DNA from: Alphaproteobacteria bacterium
GTDB lineage: Bacteria > Pseudomonadota > Alphaproteobacteria > SP197
Assembly: GCA_965242595.1 (NCBI GenBank)
Contig: OZ251464.1
Location: forward strand, 1,278,235-1,342,234
DNA length: 64,000 bases
Direction of reading: 5' to 3'
Both the position numbers and the translations under genes were made by a program. Below, piece by piece: positions 31,246 to 43,421 of the stretch; positions within the stretch are counted from its first letter, which is position 1, and each line of letters opens with the position of its first letter. Below the pieces are notes generated by a model that searched no databases, was not told the origin of the DNA, and saw only the letters and a program-made list of their open reading frames with translations.

Positions 31246-32055
31246 TCATACCTCCACACACTCAAAGCGCAGTTGATTTTCCGTGACCTGCTTGTCATGG
31301 GGCACCGTGCATACCCGTAGGCAAGGAACGAAAGCCTGCCCGCAAACAGCCCATTTCTTATTCCAAACACCGTCTGGGAACAGACGTCGGCTATGACTCG
31401 TTACATGCCTTCCCCAACACGTGCTATCGGTGAACGGTCTCCCGAGATCCTCTACGTCTGTTGCTTTGAGAAATCCCAAATAAACAAGAACCACTGGATA
31501 ACCCAGTTCGGTGAGTTTCCAGGACCAGGAGAAACGGTTGGATATCTGATAGCAGAGGTCGCGCGATAGTGACCAATCATGTCCTGTCGCTTTCGTTAAG
31601 GCCATACTGGCCTCACAAATACATTTTTCAATTCGTTTGTGATTGCGTCGGGAGTCTTCACTCGCATCAGATTTTAATGGTTTACCATTGAGACTCAATT
31701 CTTTTGTGTGAGCTTTTGCTTCGACGAGAAGTAATCCCCTTGCGCCATCAATTTTGCAAGTACTGGCGATATCGAAGTTCGGAGTATTAGGGTTATTAGA
31801 ACTCACTGCAATCCACCAATGGCATAAAGTATCTTGATCCTTCTCCGGCAACAGGGGTGATCGATCCAAACGTGCTTCCTCGGTCCGACAAAATCCTTGT
31901 GGTAGCCAGCTGTCATTCGCCGACACTTCGATCCATGGTGCAGCCAGCTTCGTCAAGCGCGCGGCGACTTCCTCAGGCTTCCCATGAGTAAGCCAGTGGC
32001 AACGTGGCTTACTTCCTCTACGCCCTTTCGCGGGCAGCTTATTGAGCAGGCTCAT
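31246..32055 (-). CDS. PD-(D/E)xK nuclease-like protein (candidate restriction/defence endonuclease) in a low-GC islet
   Basis: About 48-50% GC versus about 70% in the flanks. Motif ...NTPNFDIASTCKIDGARGLLLVEAKAH... fits D-x(n)-E-x-K of the restriction endonuclease-like fold. The 270-aa ORF starts MSLLNKLPAKGRR. An alternative start lies 19 codons upstream. A 13-codon upstream mini-ORF with a good SD overlaps the start. Confidence 0.6.
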   Translation of the reverse strand: MSLLNKLPAKGRRGSKPRCHWLTHGKPEEVAARLTKLAAPWIEVSANDSWLPQGFCRTEEARLDRSPLLPEKDQDTLCHWWIAVSSNNPNTPNFDIASTCKIDGARGLLLVEAKAHTKELSLNGKPLKSDASEDSRRNHKRIEKCICEASMALTKATGHDWSLSRDLCYQISNRFSWSWKLTELGYPVVLVYLGFLKATDVEDLGRPFTDSTCWGRHVTSHSRRLFPDGVWNKKWAVCGQAFVPCLRVCTVPHDKQVTENQLRFECVEV

Positions 32056-36936: not shown

Positions 36937-37026
36937 TCAGATGGACAGAAGAACGATGGCGACCGCCACCGTCAGGACGCATCCCGCGACAACCGTGGCC
37001 GGCAGCGATTCCAGAATCTTGGTCAT
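36937..37026 (-). CDS. Candidate 29-aa hydrophobic micro-protein (MTKILESLPATVVAGCVLTVAVAIVLLSI)
   Basis: SD GAGGGGGAGC 4 nt before ATG. Single predicted TM. Stop lies 23 bp upstream of the membrane-protein gene start. Confidence 0.35.
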   Translation of the reverse strand: MTKILESLPATVVAGCVLTVAVAIVLLSI

Positions 37027-37254
37027 AAGCTCCCCCTCGGGTGATGTCCGCCGCCCCCGCAGGCCCGCCCGGCATCTGCCGCGGGGCCATGCCGACGAGG
37101 GCACCCGGCCATTGTGCCGTCCCGCCCCCGCCTTGGCAAGCGCCTCCGCCGCCATGGCACAGGGGGAGCCAGCCTGCCTCGCGCCCGCCCTGGGCCGGCC
37201 GGCGGGGCAGGCGCGGCGCTAGAGGATCCCCGCCCGCTTCAGCTTCGCCCTCAA

Positions 37255-38661
37255 TTAGGCCTGGGTTCCGGTTCCCTTGGTCGAGTTGCAGGCCTGGCAG
37301 AGCAGTTGCAGATTGTCGCTGTGGTCGCTGCCGCCCTTGATCTTCGGCGTGATGTGATCGACGGTCAGGTTGCGGAAGGGAAAATGGGTCATGCAGCCGT
37401 TGCAGCGGCCTTCCTGCTGGCCATAAAGGGTGTGCTTGTGGGTGCGATAATCCGGCAGCTTGCCCAGATCGGTGCGCGCCGGAATATCGCTTCTGTGATC
37501 GACGTCATAGAAGATGCCCATCTCCTGCTGCAGGCGGGAGACCACCAGCTTCGCGGCCAGGGGCGAGAGGTCGATCCCTATCCAGTGGCGCTGCAACTGT
37601 TCGGCGGCGACGAGAGCCGTCGCGCAGCCGCAGAAGGGGTCGAGCACGATGTCGCCCGGCCTGGACGACGCGCGGATCACACGTTCGAGCAAGGCGAGCG
37701 GCTTCTGTGTGGGATAGCCTGTGCGTTCCTTGCTGTGCGCGGAAACAGGGTTGATATCCAGCCATATTGCGGTCGGAATCTGGCTCTTCTCCCGATTTAA
37801 ATAACGCTTCAATGCGGGAGTTTTCCCTTGCAGCGGCCATGCAATGAGCCCGGTTTTGTCCAGCATGTCGAGGCGCGCATGAATGCCCTTTATCGAACGA
37901 TAACCGGGGATAAAATTATCTTCCACCCATCTGGCATATTCGCCGGTCAGCGGCACCGCCCAGTGTCTGCCGACCTTTCCTGGGTCGATGCCGCGCCAGG
38001 GCTGGCCGCTTTCGCCCGTTCTCACCTCGGAGGCGGTCAGATCGCCCAGTCTGTAGATGCCATGCTTGTCCTCGTGGCGATAGAATTTGCGCACGTAATC
38101 TGGATCCAAAGGCACCCGCACCGCATCTTTGTCGATAGGCGCGCCATAGAAAAGAAGATTGTCCACCACCTTGCCAAAGCCCTTGCTGTCGCTATGCGCC
38201 GATTGCCGCTTCCAGACGATCTCGTTGCGAAACATGGAGGCACCGAACAAGCCGTCCATAAGCGCCTTGAGATAATGGCCCGCCGTCGGATCGCAATGCA
38301 GATAGATCGAACCCGTCGGCTTCAACACGCGGCGCAACTCCAGCAGCCTGACCGCCATCATGCACAGATAGGCCTTCATGCCCCTGGAGTGGGTCAGGGC
38401 CGCCGCCTCGATGGCGGCATATACGGCGGGTTCCCGGTCGGCGATCTCGCCATGCCAGGCCAGATCCACGTCGTCGAGGGTCCAGGCGTCCTTGAAGGCG
38501 GCCCCGGCGGCCTCGCTCCCTATCGGCGCCGAATAGGTCTTGTTGCTGTTGAAGGGCGGATCCAGATAGATCAGATCCACGCTTTCGCTGTTCAGGCCGC
38601 GCAGGATGTCGAGATTGTCGCCGGTCCACAGGGTGCGGTTGTTCCAGTTGGGCGCTGCCAT
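37255..38661 (-). CDS. DNA methyltransferase (N6-adenine/N4-cytosine, Pfam N6_N4_Mtase, beta class) fused to a C-terminal HNH endonuclease domain
   Basis: DPPF catalytic motif (IYLDPPFNS) near the N-terminus and the SAM motif LDPFCGCATALVAAEQL later give beta-class order. C-terminal CNGCMTHFPFRNLTVDHITPKIKGGSDHSDNLQLLCQACNSTK is a canonical HNH. Confidence 0.75.
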   Translation of the reverse strand: MAAPNWNNRTLWTGDNLDILRGLNSESVDLIYLDPPFNSNKTYSAPIGSEAAGAAFKDAWTLDDVDLAWHGEIADREPAVYAAIEAAALTHSRGMKAYLCMMAVRLLELRRVLKPTGSIYLHCDPTAGHYLKALMDGLFGASMFRNEIVWKRQSAHSDSKGFGKVVDNLLFYGAPIDKDAVRVPLDPDYVRKFYRHEDKHGIYRLGDLTASEVRTGESGQPWRGIDPGKVGRHWAVPLTGEYARWVEDNFIPGYRSIKGIHARLDMLDKTGLIAWPLQGKTPALKRYLNREKSQIPTAIWLDINPVSAHSKERTGYPTQKPLALLERVIRASSRPGDIVLDPFCGCATALVAAEQLQRHWIGIDLSPLAAKLVVSRLQQEMGIFYDVDHRSDIPARTDLGKLPDYRTHKHTLYGQQEGRCNGCMTHFPFRNLTVDHITPKIKGGSDHSDNLQLLCQACNSTKGTGTQA

Positions 38662-38675
38662 CGCTGTCTCTCGCC

Positions 38676-40841
38676 TTATGCGCGCATATCGCCATCGCCC
38701 GAAGCCAGATCGAAAACCACGCCGCCGGAGACGGGGTTGGCTTCGGTCAGCACCACCGTGATGGCGTCGCCCAGGCGCCAGATGCCGTCCCGGCCGCGCA
38801 GGGTGCGGCGGCGCTCGTCGAAACGGAAGGGGCCGCCCGGCAGGCGCCGGGCCGGCAGCAGGCCGTCGGCCTCGATGCCGTCGATGCGCACGATCAGGCC
38901 GAAACGCCCCAGCCCGGCGACGCGCCCGGCCATGGTGGCGCCGGTTCGCTCGGCCATGTAGCTGGCCAGATAGCGGTCCATGGCCTCGCGCTCGGCCCAG
39001 ACGGCGCGCCGTTCGGTGGCGCTCAGATGGGCGCCCAGTTGGGCGAAATCGGCGCCGTCCGCCTGGCCGCCCGCGCCCAGCCCCAGGGCGGCGATCAGCG
39101 CCCGGTGCACCGCCAGATCGGCATAGCGGCGGATGGGCGAGGTAAAATGGCTGTAGGCGGCCAGGGCCAGGCCGAAATGGCCGCGCCGTTCCGGCCCGTA
39201 TTCGGCCTGCGCCTGGCTGCGCAGCACCGCCTCGTGGATGGCGTGGCGGTGGCGGCTGGCGGCGGCCTGTTTCAGCACCTGCGCGAAGTCGCGCGGACGC
39301 AGGGCCTGGCTGCGGCGCAGGCGCAGGCCCAGGCTTTCCAGAAAATCGCGCAGCTCGTCGGCCTTTTCCGGCGCCGGGCGGTCGTGCAGGCGATAGATCG
39401 CCTGCGCCCGCCTGGCCTCCAGCGCGGCGGCGGCGGCGATGTTGGCGGCGATCATCAGCTCCTCGATCAGCCGGTGGCTGGCCAGGCGGCGCCGGGGCGC
39501 GACCTCCACGCCGCCCGCCGGCAACAGCGTCACGCGCCGTTCCGCCCGCTCGATGTCCAGCGCGCCGCGCCGCTCCCGCGCCTGGGCCAGCGCGCCATAG
39601 GCGCCATAGAGCGAATCGAAAAGCGAAGCGAAGAGCGAATCGGGCAGGGCGGGCGCCGCCCCGGCGCTGGCCGCGCCATCGCGCCGGGCCTGGACCTGGT
39701 CATAGGTCAGCCTGGCGGCGGAACGCATCACGGCGCGGGCAAAGCGCCAGCGCAACAGCTCGCCATCGCCGGCGATCCAGAGGTGGACGGCCAGGCAGGG
39801 GCGGTCGTGCCCGGGCAGCAACGAGCACAGCCGGTTGGACAGGCGCTCCGGCAGCATCGCCACCACGCGGTCGGGGAAATACACCGAATTGCCGCGCTGG
39901 CGGGCGGCGCGGTCCAGCGCGCTGCCGGGGCGCACATAATGGGCGACATCGGCGATGGCGACCACGGCGTGCCAGGCGGCGCCATCTTCGCCAGCGGTGG
40001 CAGGCTCGGCGAACACGGCATCGTCGTGGTCGCGGGCGTCGGCGTCGTCGATGGTCACCAGCGGCAGGGGGCGCAGATCCTCGCGCCCGTCCTCACGCCT
40101 GGCCAGCGGCTGCGCCGCCTCGGCTTCGGCCAGGGCGTCGGCGGCGAAGTCGGTGGGGATGCCGTGGGCGGCGATGGCCAGAAGGCTGGCCGCCCCCGCG
40201 TCCTGCCAGCGGCCCAGGCGGCGCAGGATGCGGGCCGGCACCGGCCCGAAACGGCGGCGCGAAAGCGGCTGGACCAGCACCAGGTCGCCATCGGCCAGCG
40301 CCAGGCCGGGCGGCACCACGGCGCGCCAGTCATGGGCCTGGCGGCGGTCGGCGGGCTGGATGCGATCGCCCCTGGCGGTCGTGCGGAACACGCCCACCGC
40401 CTGGCGCTCCTCCGCCTCCAGCACCCGGCGCACCCGGCCCTTCCAGCCGCCGCCGGGCAGGGGATCGATGCTGGCGACGGCGCGCTGGCCGATGCCGGGG
40501 GCGGGGCGGGCGCCAGAGGTCAGGGCGATGCGTGGCGGTGGGCCTTCGCCCTGCCAGGAGGCGGGTTCGGCCACGGCGTTGCCTTCGTCGTCCAGGGCCA
40601 CCACCTCCACCACGGTTTCTGAAGGCAGGGCGCCTTGCGGTTGCAGTCGGCGGCGGCCGCCGGCAAGCGCCCCTTCGCGCTTCAACTCGCCCAGCAGGCG
40701 GCCCAGCGCCGCGCGCCGTTCGCTGCCGGCGATGGCGAAGGCGCGGGCGATCTCGCGCTTGCCGGCGCGCCCGCGATGACGGGCCACGAAGGCCAGCAAT
40801 TGCTCGCGCGAAGGCAGCCCCTCGTCGTCGCCCGCCGCCAT
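38676..40841 (-). CDS. rnr: Ribonuclease R
   Basis: 721 aa. RNB catalytic motif PLPLVTIDDADARDHDDAVFAE. N-terminal HTH/cold-shock region and C-terminal S1-like region. Confidence 0.85.
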   Translation of the reverse strand: MAAGDDEGLPSREQLLAFVARHRGRAGKREIARAFAIAGSERRAALGRLLGELKREGALAGGRRRLQPQGALPSETVVEVVALDDEGNAVAEPASWQGEGPPPRIALTSGARPAPGIGQRAVASIDPLPGGGWKGRVRRVLEAEERQAVGVFRTTARGDRIQPADRRQAHDWRAVVPPGLALADGDLVLVQPLSRRRFGPVPARILRRLGRWQDAGAASLLAIAAHGIPTDFAADALAEAEAAQPLARREDGREDLRPLPLVTIDDADARDHDDAVFAEPATAGEDGAAWHAVVAIADVAHYVRPGSALDRAARQRGNSVYFPDRVVAMLPERLSNRLCSLLPGHDRPCLAVHLWIAGDGELLRWRFARAVMRSAARLTYDQVQARRDGAASAGAAPALPDSLFASLFDSLYGAYGALAQARERRGALDIERAERRVTLLPAGGVEVAPRRRLASHRLIEELMIAANIAAAAALEARRAQAIYRLHDRPAPEKADELRDFLESLGLRLRRSQALRPRDFAQVLKQAAASRHRHAIHEAVLRSQAQAEYGPERRGHFGLALAAYSHFTSPIRRYADLAVHRALIAALGLGAGGQADGADFAQLGAHLSATERRAVWAEREAMDRYLASYMAERTGATMAGRVAGLGRFGLIVRIDGIEADGLLPARRLPGGPFRFDERRRTLRGRDGIWRLGDAITVVLTEANPVSGGVVFDLASGDGDMRA

Positions 40842-40850
40842 GGGGGCCGT

Positions 40851-43421
40851 TCAGCCCCCGGCCCGGCGCGGCGTCTTCGCGCCCTTCCTTCCCCTGGCGG
40901 CGCCCCGCCCGGCCGCCTTTTTTCTGGCCAGCAGGTCCAGCGCCATGGCCAGGGTCGCTTCCTCCGGCTCCACCCCCTTGGGCAGGGAGGCGAAGACGCG
41001 GCCATGGGCGGCATAGGGACCGTAGCGGCCCTTTCTGATCTCCACCGGCGCGCCGTCGTCGGGATGGGCGCCCAGGGCCTTCACCACCGCCTGGCGCGGC
41101 GCGCGCTTGCCCTTCTCGGCGATCAGCGTCACGGCGCGGTTGAGGCCGACGGTGAGCACATCGTCGCCCGCGGGAAGGGCGGTATAGGCCCTGCCATGCT
41201 TCAGATAGGGGCCATAGCGCCCGATCCCGGCCTGGATCGGCGCGCCGTCGTCCGGGTGGGCGCCCAGCTCGCGCGGCAGGGCCAGCAGGGCCAGCGCCGC
41301 GGCCAGGTCGATCTCGCCGGGCGCCTTGTCCTTCGGCAGCGACACCCGCTGCGGCTTGCCCGCGCCCTTCGCCTCGCCTTCGCCCTTCTGGACATAGGGG
41401 CCATAGGGGCCGCGCCGCAGGGTGATGGCGAGGCCGCTTTCCGGGTCGGCGCCCAGCTGGCGGGGGCCGTCCTCGCCGTCGCCGCTCTCGCCCAGGCGGC
41501 GGCGATGGCGGCATTCGGGATAGCCGGAACAGCCCAGAAAGGCGCCATAGCGGCCCAGCTTCAGCTCCAGCCGGCCCTGCTTGCAGGCGGGGCACAGGCG
41601 CCTGTCATCGCCGTCGCCGTCGTCATCGCCGGCGCCAGCGCGGGGGAACAGGCGCTCGGCCAGGGCCTGTTCCAGGGCCGCGGTCACGCGCTCGCGCTCC
41701 AGACCGTCGGCCGCCTGCACCGCCATGTGGAACGCCTCCCAGAAATCGCGCAGCACCTGTTTCCAGTCGATGGCGCCTTTGGCGATGCGGTCGAGCTCGT
41801 TCTCCAGGCCGGCGGTGAAGCCGTATTCGACATAGGCGGGAAAGAAGGCTTCCAGAAAGGCGGTCACCAGCCGCCCGCGCTCGCTGGGGTGAAAGCGCTT
41901 TTTCTCCAGCAGGACATATTCGCGCTCCTGCAGCACGGCCAGGATGCTGGCATAGGTGGAAGGGCGGCCGATGCCCAGCTCCTCCAGCCGCTTCACCAGG
42001 CTGGCCTCGCTGTAGCGCGGCGCCGGTTCGGTGACATGGCGTTGCGGCCGCACCTCGCCCAGGTCCAGCGCCTCGCCTGCGCGCAAGGGTGGCAGGCGCC
42101 GTTCCCTGTCGTCGTCGCGGCTGGCGTCGTCGCGGCCCTCGAGATAGAGGCGCATGAAGCCGTCGAAGGCGAGCGTCGATCCGGTGGCCCGCAGCGCCAC
42201 ATCGCCGGCGGGTGTGGCGATGTCCACCGCCACCTTGTCCAGGGCGGCCGGGGCCATCTGGCTCGCCAGCGCCCGTTTCCAGATCAGCTCGTAGAGCGCC
42301 GCCTCGTCACGCCCCAGCCTGGCGGCGACGCTGGCGGGCGCCCGTTCGAAGGCGGTGGGGCGGATGGCCTCATGGGCTTCCTGGGCGTTGCGGGTCGAGG
42401 AACGGAACACCCGCGCCCTGGCGGGCAGATAGGGTTGCCCGTAGCGCTCCGCGATCAGGCGCCTGGCGCTTTCCAGCGCGGCGCGCGACAGCGCCACGCT
42501 GTCGGTCCGCATATAGGTGATCAGCCCCACCGTCTCGCCGCCCAGATCGACGCCCTCGTAGAGGCGCTGCGCCACCTGCATGGTGCGGGCGGCGGCAAAG
42601 CCCAGCTTGCGCGAGGCCTCCTGTTGCAGGGTGGAGGTGATGAAGGGCGGGGCCGGGTTGCGCTTGACCTGCTTGCGCTCCACCGCCGTCACCGCAAAGC
42701 TGCCCGCCCGCACCCGCTGCGCCGCCGCCTGGGCGCTGTCGCTGTCGGCGAGCGCGAATTTGTCCAGCTTGACGCCGTCCAGCGCTACCAGGCGGGCGCT
42801 GAAGCCGGCGCCGCCGGGGCGGGCCAGGTCGGCCTCCACGCTCCAGTATTCGCGCGGGACGAAGGCCTCGATCTCGGCCTCGCGGGCGCACACCAGGCGC
42901 AGGGCCACGGATTGCACGCGCCCGGCCGAACGGCTGCCGGGCAGCTTGCGCCACAGCACCGGCGAGAGGTTGAAGCCCACCAGGTAATCCAGCGCCCGGC
43001 GCGCCTGCTGCGCGTTCACCAGCGCCATGTCGATATCGCGGGGGTGGGCCATGGCGTGGCGGACCGCATCGCGGGTGATCTCGTGGAAGATCACCCGCCG
43101 CGCCTTGCGCCGCCCCAGCGCGCCCTTGTCCCGCAGCCAGTTGCGCACATGCCAGGAAATGGCCTCGCCTTCCCGGTCCGGATCGGTGGCCAGCAGCAGG
43201 TCGTCGGCCCCGCGCAGGGCGGCGGCGATGGCGGAAAGCGGCTTCCTGGCCCGCTCGCCGACCGCATAGACCATCTCGAAGTCCTTGTCCGGCAGCACCG
43301 AGCCGTCGCGCGGCGCCAGGTCGCTGACATGGCCGTAGCTGGCGACCACCGTGAAGTCGCTGCCCAGATATTTCTCGATCGTCCTGGCCTTGGCGGGCGA
43401 TTCGACGACGACGACGTGCAT
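40851..43421 (-). CDS. topA: DNA topoisomerase I
   Basis: MHVVVVESPAKARTIEKYLGSDFTVVASYGHVSDL Toprim. Active-site region ...LITYMRTDSVALS.... C-terminal zinc-ribbon/basic repeats. Confidence 0.9.
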   Translation of the reverse strand: MHVVVVESPAKARTIEKYLGSDFTVVASYGHVSDLAPRDGSVLPDKDFEMVYAVGERARKPLSAIAAALRGADDLLLATDPDREGEAISWHVRNWLRDKGALGRRKARRVIFHEITRDAVRHAMAHPRDIDMALVNAQQARRALDYLVGFNLSPVLWRKLPGSRSAGRVQSVALRLVCAREAEIEAFVPREYWSVEADLARPGGAGFSARLVALDGVKLDKFALADSDSAQAAAQRVRAGSFAVTAVERKQVKRNPAPPFITSTLQQEASRKLGFAAARTMQVAQRLYEGVDLGGETVGLITYMRTDSVALSRAALESARRLIAERYGQPYLPARARVFRSSTRNAQEAHEAIRPTAFERAPASVAARLGRDEAALYELIWKRALASQMAPAALDKVAVDIATPAGDVALRATGSTLAFDGFMRLYLEGRDDASRDDDRERRLPPLRAGEALDLGEVRPQRHVTEPAPRYSEASLVKRLEELGIGRPSTYASILAVLQEREYVLLEKKRFHPSERGRLVTAFLEAFFPAYVEYGFTAGLENELDRIAKGAIDWKQVLRDFWEAFHMAVQAADGLERERVTAALEQALAERLFPRAGAGDDDGDGDDRRLCPACKQGRLELKLGRYGAFLGCSGYPECRHRRRLGESGDGEDGPRQLGADPESGLAITLRRGPYGPYVQKGEGEAKGAGKPQRVSLPKDKAPGEIDLAAALALLALPRELGAHPDDGAPIQAGIGRYGPYLKHGRAYTALPAGDDVLTVGLNRAVTLIAEKGKRAPRQAVVKALGAHPDDGAPVEIRKGRYGPYAAHGRVFASLPKGVEPEEATLAMALDLLARKKAAGRGAARGRKGAKTPRRAGG

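What the first reader, a model, noticed from the sequence alone, without database searches (positions are those of the whole stretch)
37255..38661. Single-polypeptide DNA methyltransferase-HNH endonuclease fusion inserted into the rnr/topA housekeeping block
The 468-aa ORF has an N-terminal beta-class amino-methyltransferase (DPPF catalytic motif before the FxGxG-like SAM motif LDPFCGCATA) and a complete C-terminal HNH nuclease (CNGC...DHITP...HSDNLQLLCQACN). Modification and a potential cleavage activity sit in one chain with no separate specificity or restriction subunit. This is not a standard Type II RM layout (it resembles neither Type IIG nor classic two-gene systems). It could be a self-contained RM-like or anti-phage module, or a methylase that nicks DNA. 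It lies 15 bp after rnr and before an unrelated membrane-protein gene, consistent with insertion into a conserved neighbourhood.
Basis: partly seen in the sequence, partly recalled or inferred. Interest (0 to 1): 0.6.

Follow-up and report, generated by a model that had tools for sequence, protein, structure and literature searches.

The report
Mobile one-gene methylase–HNH nuclease fusion
A single gene that joins a DNA methylase to a DNA-cutting HNH domain has been inserted as a bare coding sequence right after the RNase R gene; it belongs to a large, horizontally spreading and uncharacterised family that probably works as a one-protein restriction-modification enzyme.

Summary
Window 37255-38661 (-) encodes a 468-aa protein with an N-terminal beta-class DNA methyltransferase (DPPF before LDPFCGCATA) and a C-terminal HNH nuclease; both pass Pfam's cut-offs. 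The HNH residues are invariant in relatives, and the linker+HNH has the lowest dN/dS of the protein (0.083). It is not a one-off. The fused proteins form a monophyletic clade spanning several phyla, with a hypervariable middle (target-recognition) region and a constant nuclease module. None of the 80 best viral-contig relatives is fused; these are MTase-only. No neighbouring gene is conserved across 20 loci. The insertion is demonstrated. Two close relatives (rnr 90% and 73% identical) have empty sites and one (92%) is filled. The insert is about 1.53 kb: a 14-nt leader, the ORF and a ~70-nt trailer, with no repeats, integrase or promoter of its own. The window copy carries a nonsense mutation (GAA to TAA) that removes the conserved last 12 residues. 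The most likely function is a self-contained, selfish or defensive restriction-modification enzyme, nominally Type IIC, built from parts not seen in characterised members. Cleavage and specificity are untested, and no paper describing the architecture was found. Verdict: new variant of a known kind, moderate interest.

The parts
37255..38661 (-). MTase-HNH ORF as it now stands (468 aa)
   Evidence: ORF list; Pfam N6_N4_Mtase + HNH; 100% match to P0001
37219..37254 (-). In-frame remnant of the ancestral C-terminus (LRAKLKRAGIL*), cut off by the TAA at 37255-37257. The ancestral ORF was 37219-38661 (480 aa).
   Evidence: Sequence and translation; relatives continue with ELxAxLxxxG(I/L)
37555..38580 (-). 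Beta-class DNA methyltransferase domain (residues 28-369)
   Evidence: Pfam; PDB sequence hits M.BceJIV, M.RsrI, CcrM, M.MboIIA; Foldseek hits EcoP15I Mod, M.BceJIV, CcrM; AF2 pLDDT 80-95
38551..38562 (-). Motif IV DPPF (catalytic), invariant in the family
37732..38151 (-). Hypervariable middle region (residues 171-310), the putative target-recognition domain
   Evidence: Mean pairwise identity is 21%, against 57-66% for the catalytic parts. Tandem paralogs differ here (18-39%) while their HNH is 71-96% identical.
37615..37644 (-). Motif I LDPFCGCATA (SAM binding, FxGxG-like)
37405..37506 (-). Conserved linker (RTDxGxLPxYRTHKHxLYGxQEG) that always accompanies this HNH subtype
37258..37404 (-). 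HNH (HNN-variant) nuclease core: C420, C423, D435, H436, N450, C455, C458, N459
   Evidence: Pfam HNH/HNH_5; NCBIfam partial hits to the IscB and Cas9d HNH; invariant residues; linker+HNH dN/dS 0.083
37146..38675 (-). The inserted unit (~1.53 kb): 14-nt leader, ORF and ~70-nt trailer. It is absent from the empty sites in L169 and L170. The boundaries are approximate: about +-20 nt on the rnr side and +-10 nt on the other.
   Evidence: blastn and alignments of filled and empty sites
38676..40841 (-). rnr (RNase R), the upstream flank. The fusion gene probably depends on read-through from here.
   Evidence: Pfam RNB; no promoter-like site between rnr and the ATG
37111..37139 (-). Sigma-70-like site (TTGCCA-17-CACAAT) of the downstream operon. 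It is conserved in the empty sites and marks where flank similarity resumes.
36937..37026 (-). Conserved 29-aa membrane ORF, part of the native downstream flank
   Evidence: Also present in L170 6746-6835

Best explanation
The gene encodes a self-contained, single-polypeptide restriction-modification enzyme that behaves as a mobile, selfish or defensive element.

Proposed mechanism, step by step:
1. The Type III-Mod-like beta-class methyltransferase reads a short DNA site through its variable middle domain. With SAM it methylates that site, probably at N6 of adenine given DPPF. This step is inferred from homology.
2. The C-terminal HNH has no recognition module of its own and is tethered by a conserved ~35-residue linker. 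The methylase brings it to the same site, where it nicks or cuts DNA that is not yet methylated. This step is inferred.
3. Beta-class MTases act as dimers. [quoted passage not shown] A dimer here could therefore place an HNH on each strand. This is a structural analogy only.
4. Host DNA is protected by its own methylation, while incoming unmethylated DNA is damaged.

The gene spreads horizontally as a bare ORF that lands downstream of expressed genes. New specificities arise by swapping the middle domain while the nuclease stays the same. This part is shown by comparative data.

The window copy is a recent arrival downstream of rnr, expressed by read-through. A nonsense mutation has clipped its C-terminal helix, so it may be attenuated.
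For: - Both domains are intact by every sequence criterion.
- The HNH catalytic His/Asn and both CxxC pairs are invariant in the 25-sequence alignment A1. They are kept in 20 of 22 copies from the fused loci.
- Linker+HNH dN/dS is 0.083 at dS ~1.06, as low as the MTase catalytic core at 0.094.
- The fused proteins form one clade: 20/20 have a fused nearest neighbour, and their MRCA contains no unfused member.
- The middle region is hypervariable (mean 21% identity) while the HNH is constant. Tandem paralogs show TRD 39/18/18% against HNH 96/92/71% identity. This is the modular layout of recognition module plus generic cleavage module known from Type IIS/IIG enzymes. Allelic TRD diversity is a documented RM trait (PMC2853133).
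- No conserved neighbour was found in 20 loci, so the protein is self-sufficient.
- Filled and empty alleles exist among close relatives.
- Gene GC stays at 55-62% in the seven closest full-length relatives and the window copy, in hosts of 49-72% GC.
- Copies 60-68% identical occur in Chloroflexota, Deltaproteobacteria and Alphaproteobacteria.
- HNH-less relatives of the same MTase, sharing the window's middle region at up to 38-41%, are common on viral contigs (80/80 unfused) and in actinophages. This fits phage self-methylation as a counter-measure.
- An engineered REase-MTase fusion is functional in vivo (PMC3039593).
- CcrM provides the dimer and C-terminal-domain geometry (PMC6787082).
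Against: - No cleavage, nicking or methylation has been measured for any family member, and no paper on the architecture was found.
- The loci are not in recognisable defence islands; the neighbours are housekeeping or metabolic genes.
- PADLOC matches only generic MTase models.
- The AF2 model gives no confident HNH fold or domain packing: pLDDT is below 50 for residues 403-468.
- Some copies have altered catalytic positions: VH instead of DH in both L005 paralogs, DN in L017b, and DLPF in L005b. Activity is therefore not universal.
- The window copy lacks the conserved C-terminal 12 residues.
- How one chain avoids cutting freshly replicated host sites is unexplained.
Confidence: 0.5

Rival explanations
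1. Homing-type selfish gene. The HNH is chiefly the gene's own mobility engine. It breaks naive, unmethylated genomes so that repair copies the bare ORF in, and the methylase serves as self-immunity. Defence would be incidental.
For: - The insert is ORF-only, lies between conserved genes and has no integrase, transposase, repeats or tRNA.
- Filled and empty alleles occur in close relatives from the same set of metagenomes.
- In 6 of 7 annotated loci the gene sits directly behind a co-directional gene with a gap of 110 nt or less, as free-standing homing endonuclease genes do.
- The gene's GC is independent of the host's.
Against: - Insertion sites differ in every genome examined, so there is no conserved homing site.
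- A nuclease guided by a short methylase site would cut a naive genome many times rather than once next to the insertion point.
- The hypervariable recognition region fits diversifying specificity better than fidelity to one target.
- Two loci have an IS1595 transposase upstream, which is an alternative vehicle.
Confidence: 0.15
2. A solitary (orphan) methyltransferase in which the HNH domain is an accessory DNA-binding or zinc module. [quoted passage not shown]
For: - The HNH sits exactly where CcrM has its non-specific DNA-binding domain: after the MTase, on a linker. In CcrM that domain is required for activity (PMC6787082).
- The gene is solitary and lies among housekeeping genes.
- Some copies have substitutions at the DH dyad yet keep the zinc cysteines.
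- The gene is expressed by read-through from rnr, not as a regulated RM unit.
Against: - The general-base His, both Asn residues and the Asp of DH are kept in 20 of 22 family copies. A pure binding module would not need them.
- dN/dS of the module is the lowest in the protein.
- The gene is accessory, patchily distributed and compositionally foreign. This is unlike regulatory orphan MTases such as CcrM, which are core genes.
- The phage relatives work without any C-terminal domain.
Confidence: 0.15
3. The family is active, but this particular window copy is a decaying remnant. The nonsense mutation that removes the conserved C-terminal helix has disabled or attenuated the nuclease, leaving at most a methylase.
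For: - The TAA lies at a conserved Glu codon, and the downstream frame is still readable as LRAKLKRAGIL*.
- The tail is present in 24 of 25 aligned relatives.
- Many family fragments exist in databases.
Against: - All catalytic residues and the whole beta-beta-alpha core lie upstream of the stop.
- Window vs L003 dN/dS shows no relaxation.
- The lost segment is short and its role is unknown.
- A single-base assembly error cannot be excluded.
Confidence: 0.2

Closest known systems
Type IIC / IIG single-polypeptide restriction-modification enzymes (e.g. MmeI, Eco57I, the Tth111II/TspDTI family, DrdV; engineered RM.Eco29kI)
   Same: Nuclease and DNA methyltransferase sit in one chain. The cleavage module carries no specificity of its own and is directed by the MTase/TRD. 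Alleles differ in the TRD. The genes are solitary and mobile (PMC2441816; PMC2853133; PMC3039593).
   Different: Characterised members have an N-terminal PD-(D/E)XK nuclease, a gamma-class m6A MTase and a C-terminal TRD, and are about 900-1300 aa. Here the order is beta-class MTase with an internal TRD followed by a C-terminal HNH, in only 480 aa. Cleavage is unproven.
Type III Mod subunits (EcoP15I Mod, Mbo45V Mod) and Type II beta-class MTases (M.BceJIV, M.RsrI, M.MboIIA, CcrM)
   Same: These are the best structural and sequence matches for residues 1-385. The topology is the same: motif IV, then central TRD, then motif I. CcrM also has a linker plus a C-terminal DNA-contacting domain.
   Different: No Res helicase-nuclease partner is nearby. 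The C-terminal domain is a catalytic-looking HNH rather than a SAND-like binding domain. The gene is accessory, not core.
HNH (His-Me finger) nucleases of the Cas9/IscB/McrA/Gmet_0936 type
   Same: They share the D-H...N...N catalytic pattern framed by two CxxC zinc pairs. There are Pfam HNH/HNH_5 hits, NCBIfam partial hits to IscB and Cas9d, and a PDB hit to the 112-aa Geobacter HNH 4h9d.
   Different: This subtype has its own conserved N-terminal linker. It is found almost only at the C-terminus of this MTase clade: 73 of 148 best module hits still score for N6_N4_Mtase, and many of the other, shorter hits begin with the MTase C-terminal remnant.
ParB-MTase fusion of Bacillus cereus prophage
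   Same: [quoted passage not shown] This shows that MTase-nickase single chains exist (PMC3592412).
   Different: The nuclease fold is different (ParB rather than HNH), and that fusion is prophage-borne. The present fusion was absent from all 80 best viral loci.

Membership tests
Beta-class N6A/N4C DNA methyltransferase (Pfam PF01555 N6_N4_Mtase) | Profile match above the curated threshold | tested here: met
   134.3 bits against a cut-off of 26.7, residues 28-369
Beta-class N6A/N4C DNA methyltransferase (Pfam PF01555 N6_N4_Mtase) | Circular permutation order: catalytic motif IV (D/S)PP(Y/F) N-terminal to SAM motif I FxGxG, with the TRD between them | tested here: met
   DPPF at residues 34-37, DPFCGC at 341-346, and a variable region at 171-310
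Beta-class N6A/N4C DNA methyltransferase (Pfam PF01555 N6_N4_Mtase) | Rossmann-like MTase fold similar to solved beta-class enzymes | tested here: met
   Foldseek E 5e-16 to 1e-13 against EcoP15I Mod, M.BceJIV, CcrM, M.MboIIA and M.RsrI; pLDDT 80-95
Beta-class N6A/N4C DNA methyltransferase (Pfam PF01555 N6_N4_Mtase) | SAM-dependent methyl transfer to a defined base and motif (m6A vs m4C) | not testable with these tools
   DPPF rather than SPPY/F suggests m6A, on established motif knowledge only
HNH / His-Me finger nuclease | Profile match above the curated threshold | tested here: met
   PF01844 scores 48.1 bits against 21.4; PF14279 scores 46.9 against 27.5
HNH / His-Me finger nuclease | General-base His, structural Asn, metal-ligand Asn/His and two CxxC zinc pairs conserved | tested here: met
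   C420 C423 D435 H436 N450 C455 C458 N459 are invariant in A1 and kept in 20 of 22 further copies
HNH / His-Me finger nuclease | Beta-beta-alpha-metal fold | tested here: inconclusive
   AF2 pLDDT is below 50 for residues 403-468 with a 25-sequence alignment
HNH / His-Me finger nuclease | Metal-dependent phosphodiester cleavage | not testable with these tools
   Needs biochemistry
Type IIC (combined R-M polypeptide) restriction enzymes | Nuclease domain and DNA m6A MTase domain in the same polypeptide (definition in PMC2441816) | tested here: met
Type IIC (combined R-M polypeptide) restriction enzymes | Architecture of characterised members: N-terminal PD-(D/E)XK, gamma-class MTase, C-terminal TRD or S subunit | tested here: not met
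   Beta-class MTase with an internal TRD and a C-terminal HNH
Type IIC (combined R-M polypeptide) restriction enzymes | Site-directed cleavage that is blocked by the enzyme's own methylation | not testable with these tools
Type III restriction-modification | Mod-like beta-class MTase with a central TRD | tested here: met
   Top Foldseek hits are 4zcf EcoP15I Mod; PADLOC MTase_III models match at E 1e-30 to 1e-33
Type III restriction-modification | Adjacent Res subunit (SF2 helicase + nuclease) | tested here: not met
   None in the window flanks or in the 19 other fused loci
Free-standing homing endonuclease gene | ORF-only presence/absence polymorphism between conserved genes | tested here: met
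   L168 filled, L169 and L170 empty; no repeats
Free-standing homing endonuclease gene | Recurrent insertion at one cognate site in different genomes | tested here: not met
   Flanks differ in every unrelated locus
Core regulatory orphan MTase (CcrM-like) | Conserved presence and synteny in relatives | tested here: not met
   Absent downstream of rnr in L169, L170 and L171

The most novel reading that the evidence does not exclude
The family is a minimal, one-ORF selfish element of a new kind, a 'homing restriction-modification gene'. The HNH, aimed by a swappable methylase recognition domain, would both restrict foreign DNA and create the breaks that let the naked ORF insert behind expressed genes without any transposase or integrase. 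As a by-product it would be a naturally modular, ~480-aa, TRD-programmable nicking or cutting enzyme family with many specificities.
Probability: 0.15. Interest if true: 0.8.

Novelty: new variant of a known kind. Interest (0 to 1): 0.55.

Why it matters
If the HNH is active, this would be a large and unexplored class of very compact single-chain restriction-modification enzymes. It would be built on a different chassis (beta-class MTase plus HNH) from all characterised Type IIC/IIG enzymes, with natural recognition-domain swapping that could be mined for new specificities or nickases.

It also gives a clean natural example of a restriction-modification gene moving as a bare ORF into a housekeeping operon, with filled and empty alleles in the same set of metagenomes. 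That bears on how defence or selfish genes spread outside defence islands.

The split between fused chromosomal forms and HNH-less phage forms of the same methylase suggests a host-phage arms race that can be tested directly.

Tried and rejected
- **Domain packing from AF2.** The full-length model was meant to show how the HNH packs against the MTase cleft. The HNH region came out at pLDDT below 50, so nothing can be said.
- **Genome scan.** The exact-sequence look-up of the window protein found no record.
- **Conserved partner gene.** All-vs-all clustering of ORFs in 20 loci found none. The small ORFs just upstream in four loci are heterogeneous: two retropepsin-like, one DUF2158, one unknown. 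They are rejected as a controller or partner.
- **Transposon- or integrase-type mobility.** There are no flanking direct or inverted repeats beyond chance GC-rich matches. There is no long target duplication, and no tRNA or Rfam RNA in the window. The trailer hairpin is no more stable than shuffles, z = -0.06.
- **Phage or plasmid origin of the fusion itself.** Phage and plasmid databases hold mainly HNH-less relatives at 45% identity or less; only 1 phage and 20 plasmid records cover 80% or more of the query. 0 of 80 viral contigs are fused.
- **The low-GC ORFan at 31246-32055 as the missing REase partner.** It has a PD-(D/E)XK-like motif, but it is not linked to the fusion in the other 19 fused loci within their fetched flanks (up to ~6-8 kb). 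It has no Pfam, PADLOC or PDB sequence hit, and only non-significant fold matches, the best being PaqCI at E 0.056. It is rejected as a required partner and kept as a side observation.
- **Literature.** Six full-text searches and ten papers read. None describes a beta-MTase-HNH single chain.
Full report
**1. The observation**

The ORF at 37255-38661 on the minus strand is real: 468 aa with an ATG start. Pfam assigns residues 28-369 to N6_N4_Mtase (E 8e-39, 134 bits, cut-off 26.7). It assigns residues 420-464 to HNH/HNH_5 (E 1e-12, 48 bits, cut-off 21.4).

NCBIfam gives only partial sub-threshold hits: YhdJ- and CcrM-type adenine methylases for the N-terminal part, and the HNH of IscB and Cas9d for the C-terminal part. 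No curated family therefore covers the fusion. PADLOC matches only generic Type II and Type III MTase models.

- DPPF at residues 34-37 (38551-38562)
- LDPFCGCATA at residues 340-349 (37615-37644)
- The HNH core CNGC...DH...N...CQACN at 37258-37404

Upstream on the same strand lie topA (40851-43421) and rnr (38676-40841). Downstream lie a 29-aa membrane ORF and a Urate_ox_N-like membrane protein. The gene's GC is 60.6%, against 74.9% for rnr and 70.2% for the whole window.

**2.

The stop codon TAA at 37255-37257 lies where all relatives have Glu. The same frame then reads LRAKLKRAGIL followed by TAG (37219-37254). This matches the relatives' conserved C-terminal helix, for example ELKAKLKQAGII in the 85% relative.

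The window copy has therefore suffered a recent GAA-to-TAA nonsense mutation that removes 12 residues after the HNH core. The ancestral ORF was 37219-38661 (480 aa).

**3.

(a) *Are the HNH residues degenerate?* No.
- In an alignment of 25 proteins 60-85% identical to the query, C420, C423, H436, N450, C455, C458 and N459 are invariant, and D435 is nearly so.
- In 22 copies taken from fetched loci, the full pattern is kept in all but two. One has N in place of the catalytic His, and a tandem pair has V in place of the Asp of DH.
- Codon analysis of window vs L003 gives dN/dS 0.083 for linker+HNH at dS ~1.06. This is the lowest value in the protein; the MTase catalytic core gives 0.094.

(b) *Is it a core gene?* No; see section 5.

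**4. What the family looks like**

- The 120 best database hits, all about 480 aa, carry both domains.
- The linker+HNH module alone finds 738 clusters (at the 50% identity level) at E<=1e-10. The module is always at the C-terminus. Of the 148 best hits, 73 still score for N6_N4_Mtase, and many of the shorter ones begin with the MTase C-terminal remnant, so they are gene fragments.
- On the catalytic core, the 20 fused sequences I could extract form one clade, cleanly separated from 146 unfused relatives. Every nearest neighbour is of the same kind, and the MRCA of the fused set contains no unfused member. This points to one fusion event.
- Within the clade, the middle region (residues 171-310) is hypervariable, with mean pairwise identity of 21% (range 5-88%). 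The flanking catalytic parts average 57-66% and the HNH 58%.
- Three loci carry two copies side by side or nearby. The pairs are 39%, 18% and 18% identical in the middle region but 96%, 92% and 71% identical in the HNH. In L005 the 3' module has dS 0.067, against 0.8-1.4 elsewhere in the gene, which is a mosaic or gene-conversion signature.
- This is the layout of a variable recognition module attached to a constant, non-specific cleavage module.

**5. Mobility**

Across 20 loci no neighbouring gene family is shared. Flanks are housekeeping or metabolic genes and differ every time:
- addAB/comEA-uvrC
- asd/recQ
- gyrB region
- luciferase-like genes
- sigma factor
- P450 genes

Two loci have an IS1595 transposase upstream.

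For the window itself, I retrieved close relatives of the host through RNase R. The host is a Rhodospirillales-like alphaproteobacterium.
- The 92% relative (L168) has the fusion gene right after rnr.
- The 90% (L169) and 73% (L170) relatives run from rnr into the downstream membrane-protein region with only 100-145 nt between them.
- A 61% relative (L171) has dprA-topA-rnr followed by unrelated genes.

Alignment of the junctions defines the insert as about 37146-38675. Similarity is lost within about 20 nt of the ATG on the rnr side. It resumes about 70 nt after the ancestral stop, exactly at a sigma-70-like site (TTGCCA-17-CACAAT, 37139-37111) that is conserved in the empty sites.

The unit is thus a 14-nt leader, the ORF and a short trailer. 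It has no promoter-like site of its own, no flanking repeats or target duplication, no significant terminator hairpin, and no tRNA or known RNA nearby.

In the closest clade, the gene's GC stays at 55-62% in hosts whose flanks range from 49% to 72%. Copies 60-68% identical occur in Chloroflexota, Deltaproteobacteria and Alphaproteobacteria.

**6. Relation to phages**

The MTase part has many HNH-less relatives.
- All 80 best viral-contig loci are MTase-only, as are 68 of the 80 best metagenome loci.
- Actinophages and rhizobial plasmids carry 40-43% identical stand-alone versions.
- These phage-type enzymes share the window's middle region at up to 38-41% identity. That is more than the 13.5% mean for other fused members that are closer in the catalytic core. 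Recognition modules have therefore been exchanged between fused and unfused forms.

One reading is that phages carry the unarmed methylase to protect themselves from the armed chromosomal enzyme. This is inference.

**7. Mechanism**

The MTase domain is most similar in fold to EcoP15I Mod, M.BceJIV, CcrM, M.MboIIA and M.RsrI. That makes it a Type III-Mod-like beta-class enzyme with an internal TRD.

In CcrM, a dimer binds one site. [quoted passage not shown] The HNH here occupies that same topological position. I therefore propose that the methylase/TRD docks on its site and presents the DNA to an HNH, probably in trans within a dimer, which nicks or cuts unmethylated sites, while methylation protects the host.

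Status of each part of the argument:
- Shown: domain integrity, selection on the HNH, modularity, self-sufficiency, mobility.
- Inferred: methylated base (m6A, from DPPF), dimer geometry, cleavage, protection by self-methylation.

The AF2 model does not help with geometry, because the HNH came out at pLDDT below 50.

**8. Comparison with what is known**

By definition, Type IIC enzymes have a nuclease and an m6A MTase in one polypeptide (PMC2441816), and an engineered REase-MTase fusion works in vivo (PMC3039593). However, all characterised natural members combine an N-terminal PD-(D/E)XK nuclease with a gamma-class MTase.

Reviews of Type II enzymes and of host-dependent restriction list HNH only in stand-alone REases (KpnI, Hpy99I, PacI, MnlI) and in Type IV reader-HNH fusions. 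A ParB-MTase fusion with nicking activity is the nearest published case of an MTase plus a nicking domain (PMC3592412).

Six full-text searches found no description of a beta-MTase-HNH single chain. REBASE could not be consulted and may list these proteins as putative methylases. I therefore rate this as a new variant of a known kind, not a new category.

**9. Rivals**

- *Homing-type role for the HNH.* This fits the ORF-only insertion polymorphism but not the different insertion site in every genome.
- *Non-catalytic, CcrM-like DNA-binding role.* This fits the position of the domain but not the conservation of the catalytic His/Asn, nor the accessory and foreign nature of the gene.
- *The window copy is attenuated.* Independently of the other two, its lost C-terminal helix may have reduced its activity.

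**10. Verdict**

The function is a well-supported but untested inference (confidence 0.5). Interest is moderate at 0.55.

Noticed in passing
window 31246-32055 (-): A second low-GC island (GC 49.9%, GC3 48%, in a 70% GC window) encodes a ~269-aa protein with no Pfam, PADLOC or PDB sequence hit. It belongs to a family of more than 1,700 homologs of about 263 aa, 51-58% identical across phyla and all annotated as hypothetical. It has an invariant PD-(D/E)XK-like pattern (D94 ... E111-x-K113, H115). The AF2 model is excellent (pLDDT 95), but the best PDB fold matches are non-significant (Type IIS REase PaqCI at E 0.056, then SfsA and MunI). It is solitary in L172 as well. It is possibly an unannotated solitary nuclease family.
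   Followed up: partly
L005 (ERZ21830300 ctg717517c) and L172 (ERZ21830300 ctg717515c): The tandem MTase-HNH pair and a homolog of the window's ORFan come from two circular contigs of nearly identical length (3,145,412 and 3,145,608 bp) in the same sample, probably sister strains. The two families therefore co-occur in both genomes examined, 5.3 kb apart in the window and ~220 kb apart there. The sample is too small to call this a link.
   Followed up: no
window 37255-37257 and 37219-37254 (-): A premature TAA lies at a conserved Glu codon of the MTase-HNH, and the old C-terminus is still readable in frame (LRAKLKRAGIL*). This is either a recent nonsense mutation or a single-base assembly error.
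   Followed up: yes
L005 8001-10950; L011 1-2313; L017 1705-3021 and 5959-7254: These loci hold two MTase-HNH paralogs in tandem or nearby. The nuclease modules are highly similar (71-96%) but the middle regions are very different. Some copies carry changes at catalytic positions: VH for DH in both L005 copies, DLPF for DPPF in L005b, and DN for DH in L017b.
   Followed up: partly
L003 7621-8001; L167 5642-5983 and 7447-7890; L172 18337-18702: Small (113-147 aa) retropepsin-like ORFs recur as solitary genes wedged between unrelated genes; the two examined (L003 7621-8001 and L167 7447-7890) keep the DTGA active-site motif and match Pfam gag-asp_proteas just above threshold. Twice they sit directly upstream of an MTase-HNH, and once between sufB and sufD paralogs. 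They may be another small mobile gene family.
   Followed up: partly
window 36937-37026 (-): A conserved 29-aa hydrophobic ORF (MTKILESLPATVVAGCVLTVAVAIVLLSI) lies just upstream of the Urate_ox_N-like membrane protein and downstream of a sigma-70-like site. It is also present in L170 6746-6835. It is probably a real small membrane protein that automated annotation would miss.
   Followed up: partly
proteins P0320, P0323, P0372, P0387: A few proteins carry the same HNH subtype behind an N-terminal transmembrane segment and a charged KEEKRR-rich stretch instead of a methylase. This looks like a membrane-anchored HNH architecture of unknown role.
   Followed up: no
window 38676-38700 (-), rnr 3' end: The last few codons of rnr differ between the window (…SGDGDMRA*), the filled relative L168 (…SGSQ*) and the empty relative L169 (…PGDPAPG*). 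The insertion, or later indels, remodelled the C-terminus of RNase R at the junction.
   Followed up: partly
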